From Heterodontus francisci (Eukaryota), in contig NC_090404.1 in the NCBI RefSeq assembly GCF_036365525.1, positions 8,494,001-8,558,000 of the forward strand: a DNA stretch of 64,000 nucleotides, given 5' to 3'. The stretch's first letter is position 1, and each line of letters opens with the position of its first letter. A model generated the notes under the pieces. That model saw only the letters and a program-made list of their open reading frames with translations, ran no database searches and was not told where the DNA came from. Shown in pieces: positions 5,417-12,464 of this stretch. The position numbers and the translations under genes were made by a program.

Positions 5417-5722
5417 CTGCGCGCCGACTCAGTGCACAGGAATACACAGCGGAGTCACTCAGTTGCAGTTTGGAGATTTTTAACCGGCAGATTTTCTCGG
5501 CAGGATCGATAGAAGCAGAAATTAGTCCCCCGGCTGCGGTTTCTTTATTATCCGCTCCTGAAGTTTGTCTCTGAAGCAGGTATTTCGGAGCCTGCCCTGG
5601 GAAGTGTCGGTACCAGTGTACTGTGTACTGACAGAACCCTGAATATTCGCAGCTTAAAGTAACGGTGTCACCGGCAGCAGAGGTTTGCAGAGGCGGACCC
5701 CGGGACACCAGGGAACTGGAAT
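5417..5722 (-). CDS. Leaderless supporting TCR-delta V segment of NAR-TCR cassette 1
   Basis: CAG acceptor then (D)SSSLVSRGPPLQTSAAGDTVTLSCEYSGFCQYTVHWYRH...LQLSDSAVYSCALSRRA; canonical C, W, C plus an extra CDR1 Cys; no leader exon seen upstream; phase matches the J donor at 11108; perfect 23-RSS at 5378-5416. Confidence 0.9.
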
Positions 5723-7189
5723 CTGCAGCATGAAAATGAATATTATCAATGTTTAGCCGGCGTTTACGCGGAGAAACTTGTCAATCGCAGGAATAGTTCT
5801 TTTTTTCGCGGTAATTTGCGTAATTTGACGCCTGTTCGAAATGTATTCACCGTTACTGAGATATGAACCAGTGCGGAGATAATGTGTATTTTATTTTACA
5901 CAGCGAGTTGTTATGATCTGGAATGCACTGTCAGAATGGGTGGTAGAAGCAGATTGATATTAACTTTCAAACGGGAATTGGATGAATGTTGGACCAGGAA
6001 AATGCACGGGTCATGGAGGAAAAGCAAGGGGGAGTGGGAACAATTGGACAGAACCTACAAAGACGATGGGCCGAATGACATCCCTCCATGTTGTCTGATT
6101 CAATGATTCTATTCAATTTCTGTGTCTATTTTTCTTGGTGGAAGGCAAACTGGAGGAAACATTTTAATATCAGTGAGAGAATCACTTTACAAAAACTGTC
6201 AGTCCGGGGGTAACCCAGCTGTGTTATATCAGTACGCACAGTAAGATCCAACAGAGAGTAATGAAATTCATCAGCACAGATTGAGCGAAACTGACAGTGA
6301 ACATCAAAGGTCATTCGTTTACAACAGTTCAACACTACATGAGAGCTCATTGTTGCCTTTCACTCTATTTGTCTAGTTTCTTGCATCAAAAGGGCCCATT
6401 TGTCTCTATTTCCCTCTAATTTGAAAAAAAAAATGAAGTTAGTTTCATTTTATTTCTACATTTACTTTGTGCTGTTTGCGGTTTTTGCCATCATGGGAAC
6501 TTGTCCCGAAGTCTCTCAGTTGTCAGTTGGGTTCAGTTTTTGCTATTTCCGCAGTGGTTTTACTGTTACTGACTGGGAACTGGCTCTTCTGGATCACTGA
6601 CAATTTCAATTCCTTCAGCCCATTGGATAATTCACTCCTGTGTTCTCCAAGCGGAGTTTTCTCTGAATTTTATATTATACAGAATCTGCAGAGCAGGAAC
6701 AGGCCATTCGGCCGAACCGTTCTATACCAGTGTTTGTACTCCACTCAAGCCTCCCCGCGCCCGGACTCTAATTAACCATTTCCACCCTGAACCCTCTGTC
6801 CCTCTATTCATTGCTTCCTCCTTTTTTTTTCAAGTCGGCCCATAAATGCATCAATCCGATCTAGTCCAACCACTCCATGTGGCAGCGAGATCCATATTCT
6901 GCCCTGTCTCTGGGTAAATGAATCCTGCTTAATTAATTTATTCCGTCAGTGTCATCATATATGAATGTCTCCTTATTCTGGATTCACCCACAGAAAATAG
7001 TTTCTCCATATCCAGCAACCCATAATTTAAAAATGTCCATGAAGTCTCATTATTTTTCTCTGTTTTCCAGGGGAAAGAAGCCCAGCCTGTTCAAACATTC
7101 CAGATGGTTGTTGATTTTTTTCAGGATTTCTCAGTTTTTCAGGAGGAATATACGTTCCTGTAAGATTCAAAAACCCAACAGGAAAGATG

Positions 7190-9520
7190 AGTTAACCATG
7201 ACTAACAAAACAAGTTAAAGATTACATTAGATCAAAGGAGGTGGCTTAAAGGATTGCCAAAAAAGTGTTAAACCCGAGGATTGGGAGCAATTTCGAATCC
7301 AGCAAAAGATGAGCAAGAAACAGGGAAAAGAATATGAATGCAAGCTCGTGAGAAACATAAAGGGAGACTGTAAAAGCTTCTCTAGATATGTGAAAAGGAA
7401 AAGATCAGTAAGGATAAAACTGGGTCCATTACAAGCGGAGACAGGAGAATTTATGACGAGGAATAGGAAAATAGCAGAGAAGCTAAACAATTACTTTCTG
7501 TCTCTATTTTCAAGGAAGATACTGAAAATCCCCCAGAAATACTAGGAAACCAAAGGACTTGTGAAAATGAGGAACTTAAATGCCGTAGTATGAATAAAGA
7601 GGTAGCACTCGAAAAATAAACTGTATTGAAGGTTGATCTCTCTGGACCAGATGAGCTACATCCCAGAGTGTTGAATATTTATCTATTTTTATATTTAGAG
7701 ATACAGCACTGAAACAGGCCCTTCAGCCCACCGAGTCTGTGCCGACCATCAACCACCCATTTATACTAATCCTACATTAATCCCATATTCCTACCACATC
7801 CCCACCTTCCACCTATGCTAGGGACAATTAATAATGGCCAATTTACCGATCAACCTGCAAGTCTTCGGCTGTGGGAGGAAACCGTGGGAGCCCCGGCGAA
7901 AACCCACGCGGTCACAGGGAGAACTTGCAAACTCCGCACAGGTCGTTGGAGCTGTGAAGCTGCGGTGCTAACCACTGCGCCACTGTGCCGCCCAGTTGAA
8001 GGAGGAAGCGACAGAGATTGTGGATGGTTTGGTGATTATCTTTCAAAATTCTATAGATTCTGGAAAAGTTCCCGCAGACTGGAAAGTAGCAAATGTAAAC
8101 CCGTTGTTTAAGAAAGGAGGGAGAGTGAAAACAGGGATCGAGAGACCTGTTAGTTTGACCTCAGCAGGAGAACAATGTTAGAATCTATTATAAAGGATGT
8201 GATAACTTGTTATTAGAAAATAACGTTATGATTGGGGAGAGTCAACATGGATTTATGAAAGGGAAATCATGTTTGACAAACCGGTTGGAGTTTTTTTTAG
8301 GAGTTTACTTGTAGCATAGATAAATGAAAACCAGTGGATGTGTGCATTTGGATTTTTAGAAAGCTTTTGATAAGGTTCAACACAGGAGATTATTAAGCAA
8401 AATTAGAATGTGGGATTGGGGGTAATACACAGGAATGGATTGAAAATTGGTTAACAGAGACAAAACAAAGGATACGAATAAATGGGTCATTCTCAGGATG
8501 ACAGGCTGTGACTGGAGGGGTACCGCAAGGATCCGGGCTGGGCCACAGCTGTTCACAATGTATATAAATGATTCGGATCTGGAGACCACATATAATATTT
8601 CCACATTTGTTGATGACACAAAAATAAGTGGGAATGTAAGTTGTGAGGATGATGCGAGGAGGCTTCAAGCGATCTTCGGTGAATGGGCAGGAACTTGGCC
8701 AATGGAACATAATGTGAATCAGTGTGAAGTTATCCACTTTGGTGGATAAAATGGATTAAAACAAAACAGAAAGACAGAGTATTTGTTAAATGGTTAGAAG
8801 TTGGGAAGTGTGTTGTCCAAAGGGACCTGGGTATCCTTGTTCATGAGACACTTAAAGCTAGCATACAGGTGCAGCAAGCAATTAGGAAGGCACATGGTAT
8901 GTTGGCCTTCATCGCAAGGGGTTTTGAGTACAGGAGTAAAGGCGTACAAGTGAGATCGTACCTGGAGTATTGTGTACAGTTTTGGTCTCATCTAAGAAAG
9001 GATAGACATTCCGTATAGGGAATGCAACGGAGGTTCGCCAGACTAAACCCTGGGATGGCGGAATTATCCTATGAGGAGAGATTGAGAAAAGTGGGCATGT
9101 ATTCTCTCGAGTTTCGAGGAATGAGAGGTGATCTCACTGAAAATTGCAAAATTCTTACAGAGCGTAACAGGATGGATGGAGATAGGATGTTTCCCCTGGC
9201 TGGTGTGTCTAGAACTAGGGGACTTAGTCTCAGAATAAGGAGTAGGCCATTTAAGACTGAGATGAGGAGGAATTTCTTCACAAAAAAGGTACTGTATTTT
9301 TGGAATTCTCTACCCCAGAGAGCTGTGGAAGCTCAATCATTGAGCATGATCAAGACATAAATCGATTGATTTCTGGATAATAATGACATCAATGGATATG
9401 GGGAAAGCACGGGAAAGTGGCGTTGAGGTAAATGATCAGCCATGATGTAGTGGAATGGCAGTGCAGGCCCGATGGGCTGAATGGCCTACTCCTGTTCCAA
9501 TTTCCGATGTTCCTGTATTC
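7190..9520 (+). mobile_element. Degenerate CR1 LINE, interrupted by a SINE
   Basis: Fragmented ORFs with DWKVANVNPLFKKG, TFVDDTK, YSLEFRGMRGDL and FWNSLP; many stops and frameshifts. Confidence 0.88.
7676..7994 (-). mobile_element. tRNA-derived shark SINE (HE1/V-SINE-like)
   Basis: Minus strand starts GGGCGGCACAGTGGCGCAGTGGTTAGCAC (A box), has a GCGTGGGTTTT...GGTTTCCTCCCAC core and a CR1-like tail; GTTGAA duplicated at 7670-7675 and 7995-8000; absent from duplication copy 2. Confidence 0.8.
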
Positions 9521-9544
9521 CTATGAATGTAAGAAATCGAAGCT

Positions 9545-11172: not shown

Positions 11173-11549
11173 CACAGTGACACCGCTCCCAGTCACCCTG
11201 GTGCAAGAAGTACCGACATCTCAATCTCCCAGCCGCACATCACCAGATAGTTGGCGATGCTCAATTATTCCAGGGGTTTTAAATCATTTCGCAATATTCC
11301 CTTGTTTCACAATCCATATCTGTTCAACCTGCTGTTTTTGAGACTCTGAGTTCTTAGTGAAATGGCCCAGTAACAGGGGCCGGATTTGGGCGCTTGATAT
11401 AAAAGGAGAATAATGTCAATGAATAATGTCAAAGAAAGCGAACTGAAAGAAGGAAATTACAGTGAAATTAAACCAGATTACAGCGATAATAATATCAATC
11501 CTACAATTCAGGATCTGGACCTGGAGTATTTATATTTGGATTTTACAGA

Positions 11550-11619
11550 GGTATTTGCTCAGATCTCAAACACTGTGAAGATCCCAGGAAACACAATGTC
11601 TCAAGTCAGCACAAAATCT
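11550..11619 (-). other. NAR-TCR D segment (cassette 1), 12/12 RSS, core 11578-11591
   Basis: GGTATTTGC-12-CACTGTG [AAGATCCCAGGAAA] CACAATG-12-ACAAAATCT, lying between the NAR V and J. Confidence 0.88.
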
Positions 11620-11979
11620 CCCAGTACCGGGTGTGATGTGGGGACATTAGATAAACAGCGGAGACTGCGGTTCCCGGTTCCAGCTGACAGATCAGGATCC
11701 CATCTGGTGTTAGGAATTTGGACCTGGGACCAGACATTCCCAATCTCCATTCACTGACAGAAAGCCCGGGAAAGACATCACCATCCGCACACACTCGGCA
11801 TTTATAAAACTCAAGATGTTAACGGAAACAATCCAATAACATAAACTAGACTGTGGGACAGACGGTACGAGGCGGAACTGCAGGGTTGAACGGCAGATCA
11901 ACTCCGTTTTTTCATTTGATTCTGTGATAATCTGCAGTGTGAATTTTTGTACCGCGGGAAGCCGAGGCCCATCACTGTG

Positions 11980-12464
11980 TTTCATCGTACCTGTACTCAG
12001 CTTTACAGTAATAGGTGGCGGTGTCTTCAACTCTCACATCCCGAATTTCCAGAGAAAATGTTTTTTCTGCCTTATTCGTCCTCACAGCAAATCGCCCTCC
12101 GCTGGAGATCCGCTCCCGCTTGGTCCCGGTCTGGGTTTGTCTGAAGAAATATCCATTTCGGAATTGATATTGCCAAAACCCACCTTCATAGTAAACACAG
12201 GTGATGGTGAGAGACTGACACTCCTTCCTGGTCACCGCTCCCGGGGTCTGTGTCACTGACTGACTGAAAGAGCCTGGAAATTAAACAGAGAGAGTTTAAT
12301 GGACCATCAGAGCCGAACCACATAACGAGACTAAAACCCGAGACAGTGTCTGTAATTCGGATGGATTCGGGCAGTTTCATATTAAATCCACACAATGTCG
12401 GTTTGTTTGATCGGTACTCACGGGGTAAACAGACACACAGGGTGAAAACAAGGAGGATTCCCAT
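11980..12464 (-). CDS. NAR-TCR V gene (cassette 1): leader exon 12422-12464, V exon 11980-12273
   Basis: Leader MGILLVFTLCVCLP with GTGAGT donor; V exon SQSVTQTPGAVTRKECQSLTITC...GYFFRQ...ISSGGRF...EDTATYYCKA. CDR2 is absent as in IgNAR-type V; extra FR1 Cys; RSS CACAGTG-22-ACAAAAATT at 11942-11979. Confidence 0.93.

What the first reader, a model, noticed from the sequence alone, without database searches (positions are those of the whole stretch)
5417..12464. Complete germline NAR-TCR cassette with matched interdomain cysteines
Seen: on one strand, leader, CDR2-less V (22-RSS), D (12/12), J (23-RSS, DGSGT motif, phase-1 donor), a 5.4-kb intron, then a leaderless V (phase-1 acceptor, 23-RSS). 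Non-canonical Cys residues occur in NAR V FR1 (RKECQS) and supporting-V CDR1 (SGFCQ). Established: this is the doubly rearranging two-V-domain TCR-delta of cartilaginous fish, with those Cys proposed to form a disulfide. The inner VDJ follows IgH-type RSS geometry with a single D. A second intact cassette spans 32916-43323.
Basis: partly seen in the sequence, partly recalled or inferred. Interest (0 to 1): 0.7.

Follow-up and report, generated by a model that had tools for sequence, protein, structure and literature searches.

The report
Shark NAR-TCR cassette, IgNAR-derived layout
This is an intact, unrearranged shark gene cassette of the known NAR-TCR type, which is likely cut and joined twice in T cells to give a receptor with an extra antibody-like tip; it is ordinary for sharks, but its spacer DNA likely lines up with the back half of the shark IgNAR antibody gene, a clue to which of the two came first.

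Summary
Observation confirmed to the base: leader, NAR-type V (22-RSS), one 12/12 D, J (23-RSS), 5,386-nt intron, leaderless V (23-RSS), both extra Cys, and a second cassette at 32916-43323. It is a NAR-TCR cassette, described in 2006. The contig holds 38 NAR V and 26 supporting-V hits plus two C-delta and one C-alpha cluster. RNA-type contigs from one sample show the leader-V splice, V(D)J junctions and J spliced to a supporting V, but with paralogue letters; use of this copy is not shown. The CDR1 Cys (56 of 57 models) is better kept than canonical Cys23 (45 of 57), which fits an untested interdomain disulfide. New lead: the V-D spacer aligns with IgNAR's D2-D3 spacer (z 4.2-5.1, 0 of 600 real controls) and not with V-D1; nhmmer finds nothing. 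That suggests the V is an ancient germline V-D join, or that IgNAR gained two Ds later. The scan had already noted sister cassettes, the RSS arrays and pre-joined exons elsewhere in this genome.

The parts
12422..12464 (-). Leader exon of the NAR V (14 codons + 1 nt, phase-1 donor)
   Evidence: leader-V joint 12272/12421 with GT..AG ends in contigs of X1 and X2
11980..12273 (-). NAR-TCR V exon (VNAR-like, no CDR2, no conserved Trp, 25 nt after the Cys104 codon)
   Evidence: (best PDB hit a VNAR, E 5.5e-19)
12218..12220 (-). Non-canonical Cys codon in the a-b loop (RKECQS)
   Evidence: present in 55 of 55 scored database models
11942..11979 (-). V RSS with 22-bp spacer
11620..11941 (-). V-D spacer DNA, weakly homologous to the IgNAR D2-D3 spacer
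   Evidence: for; no nhmmer hit
11592..11619 (+). 5' 12-RSS of D
11578..11591 (-). Single D segment, 14 nt, open in three frames
11550..11577 (-). 3' 12-RSS of D
11173..11211 (+). 23-RSS of J (nonamer with 4 mismatches)
11109..11172 (-). NAR-TCR J segment (DGSGT), phase-1 donor
   Evidence: contigs end at 11109 and go on with a supporting-V start
5723..11108 (-). 5,386-nt intron, containing high-copy repeats at about 7100-9900
   Evidence: very high contig depth there
5417..5722 (-). Leaderless supporting V-delta exon, phase-1 acceptor
   Evidence: an X2 contig enters at 5722
5631..5633 (-). Non-canonical CDR1 Cys codon (SGFCQ)
   Evidence: 56 of 57 scored database models
4962..5416 (-). Supporting-V 23-RSS followed by head-to-tail 63-bp copies (7.2 units, 6 scored as RSS)
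43281..43323 (-). Cassette 2 leader
42839..43132 (-). Cassette 2 NAR V (22-RSS at 42838)
42434..42447 (-). Cassette 2 D (12/12)
41965..42028 (-). Cassette 2 J (23-RSS)
32916..33221 (-). Cassette 2 supporting V, after an 8,743-nt intron, with two tandem 23-RSS

Best explanation
This is an intact, unrearranged NAR-TCR cassette in a shark TCR alpha/delta locus, which is likely rearranged twice by RAG in gamma-delta T cells to give a delta chain with an IgNAR-like V domain on top of a supporting V-delta. Step 1: V(22) joins D(12) and D(12) joins J(23) inside 0.8 kb (shown for paralogues, inferred for this copy). Step 2: the supporting V's 23-RSS joins the 12-RSS of a D-delta about 5 Mb away, by deletion towards the C-delta cluster at C34:3.30 Mb (same strand) or by inversion towards the one at 3.46 Mb (inferred from the 12/23 rule). 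Step 3: one transcript from the NAR leader splices L to VDJ to supporting V-D-J to C-delta; the first two splices are shown for paralogues, the last is inferred. Step 4: the a-b-loop Cys and the CDR1 Cys likely form an interdomain disulfide that fixes the unpaired NAR domain on the supporting V (inferred from conservation, untested). The RSS array behind the supporting V is most likely a passenger minisatellite, because a stop in the V's frame at the first heptamer would kill joins made at the outer copies.
For: Anatomy and phases. Family placement. Genome context: 38 NAR V hits at 58-100% identity and 26 supporting-V hits at 75-100%, all on contig C34; 25 of the 26 have a NAR V 4-17 kb upstream on the same strand (coordinates). 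Two clusters with a 12/23 D, 19 and 11 J motifs and a C, plus one with 99 J motifs and no D. RNA-type contigs (one sample): leader-V joint; four different V-J junctions; supporting-V letters behind the J donor in 2 X1 contigs and 1 X2 contig; one 368-nt X2 contig runs V, 18 added letters, J, supporting V, in frame by length count. Database gene models under 12 shark and ray species names; 57 of 59 hold a scored supporting V. Cys: 54 of 55 two-domain models keep both extra Cys; 3 models lose both canonical Cys of the supporting V yet keep the CDR1 Cys. Neither Cys occurs in the 3 intact ordinary TCR Vs of the window.
Against: This copy's supporting V has GLIS (no other supporting V), an extra Cys shared only with a frameshifted duplicate and YSC, and its J nonamer has 4 mismatches, so it may be a weak or failing copy. 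The spliced and rearranged contigs carry paralogue letters; the 368-nt contig matches none of the assembled copies compared exactly (V 14 differences against 10 expected for its nearest candidate). The gene models are predictions, are related to one another, and some match cassettes of G000 itself. One model lacks the CDR1 Cys while keeping the NAR Cys (P0007). No contig linking a supporting V to C-delta was examined.
Confidence: 0.92

Rival explanations
1. Same kind of cassette, but this copy is an open-frame copy in decay: it is seldom rearranged or its supporting V folds or pairs poorly.
For: Three unusual residues in the supporting V; J nonamer with 4 mismatches; its 96%-identical duplicate 80 kb away has a frameshifted supporting V.
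Against: All frames, splice sites and heptamers are intact. The same J nonamer occurs in 3 other cassettes, and each of its substitutions occurs in cassettes whose letters appear in junctions. One X1 contig covers 1,264 nt of this intron with 1 difference, though this may be DNA.
Confidence: 0.25
2. The two extra Cys do not bond to each other; one bonds to the TCR-gamma chain or to a second receptor, or rescues the supporting V's own fold.
For: No structure of a NAR-TCR came up. In 9 of 57 models Cys23 is lost while CDR1 Cys and Cys104 remain, so an alternative intradomain bond is conceivable there.
Against: The two Cys are confined to these two segment types and co-occur in 54 of 55 models; 3 models keep the CDR1 Cys with neither canonical Cys left to pair with.
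Confidence: 0.15
3. An orphan IgNAR-like V-D-J cluster that happens to lie next to an unrelated, leader-deleted V pseudogene.
For: IgM clusters and pseudogene Vs are interspersed in this region.
Against: The pairing recurs in 25 of 26 supporting Vs; contigs show J spliced to a supporting V; NAR-TCR Vs form their own clade apart from IgNAR (100/96).
Confidence: 0.02

Closest known systems
NAR-TCR (doubly rearranging TCR-delta) of nurse shark and elephant shark; Criscitiello et al. 2006, seen only as described in PMC1845163, PMC3457774, PMC5931798, PMC6795676 and PMC12227049 (passages)
   Same: Leader + NAR V with a-b-loop Cys and no WYRK Trp; separate V-D-J; leaderless V-delta with CDR1 Cys; location in the TCR alpha/delta locus linked to IgH clusters.
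   Different: Nothing defining. Not mentioned in the passages read: the 22-bp V spacer and single 12/12 D, the copy number, the tandem RSS array, and germline-joined copies. The original paper was not held and may state some of these.
IgNAR clusters (V-D1-D2-D3-J-C), six copies on the same contig at 33.8-43.5 Mb
   Same: V domains are sisters (96/86; 41-45% identity); V RSS has a 22-bp spacer; last D is 12/12; J RSS spacer is similar; NAR-TCR V-D and D-J spacers match IgNAR D2-D3 and D3-J in length (388 vs 390, 405 vs 381 nt) and weakly in sequence.
   Different: Three Ds against one; IgNAR J is followed by its own C exons and encodes a B-cell antibody; IgNAR V has no a-b-loop Cys and a shorter 3' tail in 4 of 6 copies.
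TCR-mu of marsupials and monotremes (PMC3457774, PMC7615758, passages)
   Same: Three extracellular domains, an unpaired N-terminal V on a supporting V.
   Different: Convergent: VH-like domains, a separate locus, and in marsupials a germline-joined supporting V; here the supporting V rearranges to shared D-J-C delta.

Membership tests
NAR-TCR | N-terminal V related to IgNAR V (no CDR2, lacks the WYRK Trp) | tested here: met
   Best PDB hit a VNAR, E 5.5e-19; sister to IgNAR Vs at 96/86 in a 43-row tree; GYFFRQ
NAR-TCR | NAR V has its own leader, D and J with 12/23-compatible RSS | tested here: met
   leader-V joint in contigs
NAR-TCR | Downstream V-delta without a leader, entered by splicing from the NAR J | tested here: met
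   No leader-like exon within 3 kb, 6 of 6 controls positive; J-to-supporting-V splice in contigs with paralogue letters
NAR-TCR | Extra Cys in the NAR V a-b loop and in supporting-V CDR1 | tested here: met
NAR-TCR | Lies in the TCR alpha/delta locus with D-J-C delta available under the 12/23 rule | tested here: met
   Two D(12/23)-J-C clusters and a 99-J cluster on the same contig about 5 Mb away; the alpha/delta labels are inferred from presence of D and J number
NAR-TCR | Supporting V rearranges to D-J delta and is spliced to C-delta | tested here: inconclusive
NAR-TCR | This copy itself is rearranged and expressed | tested here: inconclusive
   Contigs at diagnostic sites show paralogue letters; contigs show presence, not absence
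NAR-TCR | Interdomain disulfide | not testable with these tools
   The structure tool returned no coordinates; conservation only
IgNAR | Three (or two) D segments and own C exons behind J | tested here: not met
   One D; J splices to a V exon
TCR-mu | VH-related V domains in a separate locus | tested here: not met
   NAR V groups with IgNAR, supporting V with TCR Vs, both apart from IgM/IgW

The most novel reading that the evidence does not exclude
The NAR-TCR V exon is a fossil germline V-D join: RAG acting in the germ line of an early cartilaginous fish fused an IgNAR-type V to its D2, deleting D1, so the V inherited D2's 22-RSS, a D-length 3' tail and the D2-D3 spacer. That would make the multi-D, IgNAR-type cluster ancestral and NAR-TCR derived, against the direction favoured in PMC12227049 and PMC3964593. 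Shown: the V-D spacer's best match among 11 other spacers is IgNAR D2-D3, the tail is 19-28 nt in 32 of 33 copies against 11 nt in 4 of 6 IgNAR Vs, and VD-, DJ- and VDJ-joined NAR-TCR copies exist in this genome. Not excluded: IgNAR gained D1 and D2 later by duplication or insertion of RSS-flanked units into a one-D ancestor.
Probability: 0.3. Interest if true: 0.62.

Novelty: new member of a known kind. Interest (0 to 1): 0.3.

Why it matters
The cassette itself is textbook for shark immunogenetics and adds little beyond annotation. Its value is as a complete germline reference: it fixes RSS geometry, splice phases and the long distance to D-J-C delta, and gives primer-level targets for repertoire work. 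Two side results touch open questions. First, the papers read leave open whether the single-domain V began in a TCR or an antibody (PMC3149040: 'uncertain'; PMC12227049: 'or vice versa'); the spacer homology says exactly which block differs between the two genes, so the direction becomes testable with holocephalan and ray genomes. Second, the extra Cys pair being better conserved than a canonical Ig Cys is indirect support for the proposed interdomain disulfide, which could be tested on recombinant protein.

Tried and rejected
Primary papers (Criscitiello 2006 and 2010, Deiss 2019, Ott 2021, a 2024 review) are not held, so whether they already give the single D, the 22-bp spacer or the RSS arrays could not be checked. 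The one supplementary file held for PMC3964593 had no NAR-TCR hit; its Supplementary Note XI may bear on the outgroup layout. Six paper searches and a word search of earlier scan notes showed nothing on spacer homology between NAR-TCR and IgNAR; this covers only the held library. The run search listed no holder on record as RNA; the three runs are RNA by guess and come from one sample. No contig showed this copy's own letters at 5524, 5607 or 12170-12190, which is not evidence of silence. AlphaFold2 on a paralogous two-domain model (P0004, 34-row alignment) gave pLDDT 85 and pTM 0.71 but no coordinates, so no Cys-Cys distance; Foldseek returned only generic scFv/diabody matches with TM-scores up to 0.40. 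The two-chain complex job gave no answer (score 0.03) and is not used either way. nhmmer profiles of 27 V-D and 27 D-J spacers found no IgNAR hit at E up to 10, and IgNAR spacer profiles found no hit at E up to 1, so the homology is faint and rests on global alignment. IgNAR V-D1 and D1-D2 spacers matched no IgM, IgW or NAR-TCR spacer, so the direction stays open; they are also shorter (189 nt), which lowers power. RSS spacer letters do not discriminate (by eye: about 13 of 22 with IgNAR D2, 12 of 22 with IgNAR V). The cluster labelled IgM has an IgW-like V and an inverted D1-D2 block; canonical IgM clusters were used instead. A long-CDR3 role for the RSS array was set aside for this copy because of the in-frame stop at the first heptamer. 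One search had a pattern bug and was redone.
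Full report
Observation. Reading 5000-13000 and translating the minus strand gives, in order, a 43-nt leader (12464-12422), a 148-nt intron, an open V exon (12273-11980) with RKECQS and GYFFRQ, a 22-bp-spacer RSS, a 14-nt D between two 12-RSS, a J (11172-11109) behind a 23-RSS, a 5,386-nt intron, and a second V (5722-5417) with SGFCQ and a perfect 23-RSS. Donor and acceptor are both phase 1. The heptamer-22-nonamer pattern occurs twice in the window, at the two NAR Vs, against 0.02 expected. 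The second cassette is at 32916-43323 as stated. A leader scan found leader-like exons behind 6 of 6 control Vs and none within 3 kb of either supporting V.

Identity. The first V's best solved relative is a shark VNAR (E 5.5e-19). In a 43-row tree built from up to 7 fetched copies per group plus the window's own, NAR-TCR Vs form one clade (100/96), sister to the IgNAR Vs (96/86), while supporting Vs sit with TCR Vs (93/89). PMC1845163 (passages) lists the NAR-TCR hallmarks: leader, a-b-loop Cys and missing WYRK Trp in the NAR V; no leader and a CDR1 Cys in the partner V-delta; and calls the bond a putative interdomain disulfide. All are met. A search for longer proteins returned 59 database models under 12 shark and ray species names, most reading leader-NAR V-J-supporting V with the same splice points. 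These are predictions and some match cassettes of G000.

Genome context. The window is G000:C34:8494001-8558000. The contig has 38 NAR V hits at 58-100% identity between 3.66 and 13.65 Mb, six IgNAR-like Vs at 33.8-43.5 Mb and 26 supporting-V hits at 75-100%; both are lower bounds. By coordinates, 25 of the 26 have a NAR V upstream on the same strand. Of 39 NAR V rows examined (the 38 plus one fragment), 35 have an RSS, all with 22-bp spacers, and 27 show the full V22/D12-12/J23 set; V-to-J distances of 757-810 nt leave room for one D. At 3.18-3.46 Mb lie a C with 99 J motifs and no D (read as C-alpha) and two clusters of opposite orientation, each with one 12/23 D, 19 or 11 J motifs and a C (read as C-delta). 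The supporting V's 23-RSS is compatible with both Ds.

RNA-type evidence. Three runs from one sample, RNA by guess, were laid on the cassette. X1 and X2 show the leader-V joint with GT..AG ends. Behind the J donor at 11109 the loose letters are the start of a supporting V in 2 X1 contigs and 1 X2 contig. Four V-J junctions appear. Three differ from germline and carry letters of cassettes at C34:3.69, 5.46/5.50 and 8.41 Mb; the fourth equals the junction of the pre-joined exons at 7.874/7.875 Mb. One 368-nt X2 contig runs V, 18 added letters, J and supporting V, in frame by length count. All diagnostic sites show paralogue letters, so the architecture is shown for the family and not for this copy.

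Cysteines. Among 55 models with both domains scored, the NAR Cys is in 55 and the CDR1 Cys in 54. Among 57 supporting Vs scored, the CDR1 Cys is in 56, canonical Cys23 in 45; 3 lack both canonical Cys but keep the CDR1 Cys. In G000 all 26 supporting-V hits show the CDR1 Cys. This fits selection on an interdomain bond but does not show it; no distance could be measured.

This copy's weak points. Its supporting V has GLIS, ICRL and YSC where relatives mostly have GRIS, ISRL and YYC, and its J nonamer has 4 mismatches. I put the chance that it is a little-used copy at about 0.25.

RSS array. Behind the supporting V are 7.2 copies of a 63-bp RSS unit. In the fetched DNA, 17 of 23 supporting Vs scored have more than one RSS, against 0 of 15 other Vs. 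A stop at the first heptamer in this V's frame would make joins at outer copies non-productive. Earlier scan notes describe the same arrays; I saw them first and agree that they are likely a passenger minisatellite.

Relation to IgNAR. IgNAR clusters here read V(22)-D1-D2(12/22)-D3(12/12)-J; canonical IgM reads V(23)-D1(12/22)-D2(12/12)-J(23). The window's V-D spacers align with IgNAR D2-D3 (z 8.0 and 9.3 against shuffles; 4.1 and 5.6 with RSS trimmed) and not with V-D1 or D1-D2 (z up to 1.3); D-J aligns with D3-J (z about 7; about 2 trimmed). With 8 of the 27 spacers as queries and 600 real windows as background, D2-D3 scores z 4.2-5.1 with 0 of 600 above it, V-D1 z 0.7-1.5; reverse-complement controls of D2-D3 also sit somewhat above the mean in 3 of 4 copies. 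With GC-matched background D2-D3 is the best of 11 other spacers (z 4.5, 0 of 150), next IgW V-D1 (z 2.7, 1 of 150). nhmmer found nothing. I rate the homology at about 0.7. It means the two genes differ by the block from the V RSS to the 5' RSS of D2. Germline V-D joining explains this, and such joins are present here in NAR-TCR (VD at 11.27 Mb, DJ at 7.807 Mb, VDJ at 7.874/7.875 Mb) and in IgW-like clusters (L102, L103). Later gain of two Ds in IgNAR explains it as well, and fits the absence of IgNAR in the elephant shark (PMC3964593, passage). PMC12227049 (section 6) favours TCR-to-Ig transfer but adds 'or vice versa'; PMC3149040 (passages) calls the origin uncertain.

Papers seen. Passages: PMC1845163, PMC3457774, PMC6795676, PMC5931798, PMC7615758, PMC3964593 (plus a blank supplement search), PMC3149040; passages and section 6: PMC12227049. 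The 2006 description was not held and is cited second-hand. RSS consensus, the 12/23 rule, IMGT Cys numbering and the IgM/IgW/TAILV labels on V sequences are recalled, not from a call.

Verdict. Interest 0.3, lifted slightly by the spacer homology and the Cys conservation. The novel reading has probability 0.3 and would merit about 0.6.

Noticed in passing
G000:C34:7874115-7877451 (L012): A germline NAR V-D-J is followed by two leaderless, pre-joined NAR VDJ exons with the same junction (one with a stop, one open), then a supporting V. That junction appears in an X1 contig at depth 47, the highest of the four junctions seen, so the exon is likely transcribed.
   Followed up: partly
G000:C34:11269620-11269963 (L008) and 7806540-7807306 (L020): Partly joined NAR-TCR cassettes: one V fused to its D and followed by a 12-RSS; one leaderless second NAR V facing a fused D-J behind a complete V-D-J.
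   Followed up: partly
G000:C34:3.30-3.34 Mb (-) and 3.443-3.462 Mb (+): Two TCR-delta-like D-J-C clusters in opposite orientation with 19 and 11 J motifs, flanking a group of VH-like V segments at 3.37-3.43 Mb.
   Followed up: partly
P0033-P0036, P0041, P0044, P0046, P0047, P0057; G000:C34:7931020, 8399247, 8433182: Supporting Vs lacking canonical Cys23 (Trp or Tyr instead); three database models also lack Cys104, yet all keep the CDR1 Cys.
   Followed up: partly
window 18950-52500 and 61200-61570: Ordinary TCR V segments between and beside the cassettes: apparently intact at about 50300-50600 (+), 52157-52470 (-) and 61220-61527 (+); broken at about 18976 (+), 26882 (-), 31399 (-) and 48363 (-).
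   Followed up: no
window versus G000:C34:8.40-8.68 Mb: Recent segmental duplications: cassette 1 has a 96%-identical twin about 80 kb away with a frameshifted supporting V, and three V pairs recur at a 173.8-kb offset.
   Followed up: no
window 28486-31185: A 2.7-kb minisatellite of 59 copies of a 45/46-bp unit, 1.7 kb behind the cassette-2 supporting V.
   Followed up: no
G000:C34:12957400-12958640 (L096): An IgH cluster with an IgW-like V whose D1-D2 spacer block is inverted relative to canonical IgM clusters, giving D1 12/12 and D2 22/12.
   Followed up: no
G000:C29:31082980-31083268 (L093): A non-rearranging VJ-type exon with weak similarity to NAR V on another contig; long branch in the tree.
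   Followed up: no
P0001: A database model from another shark also shows two NAR V-J units in tandem before a supporting V, like the 7.87 Mb cassette.
   Followed up: no
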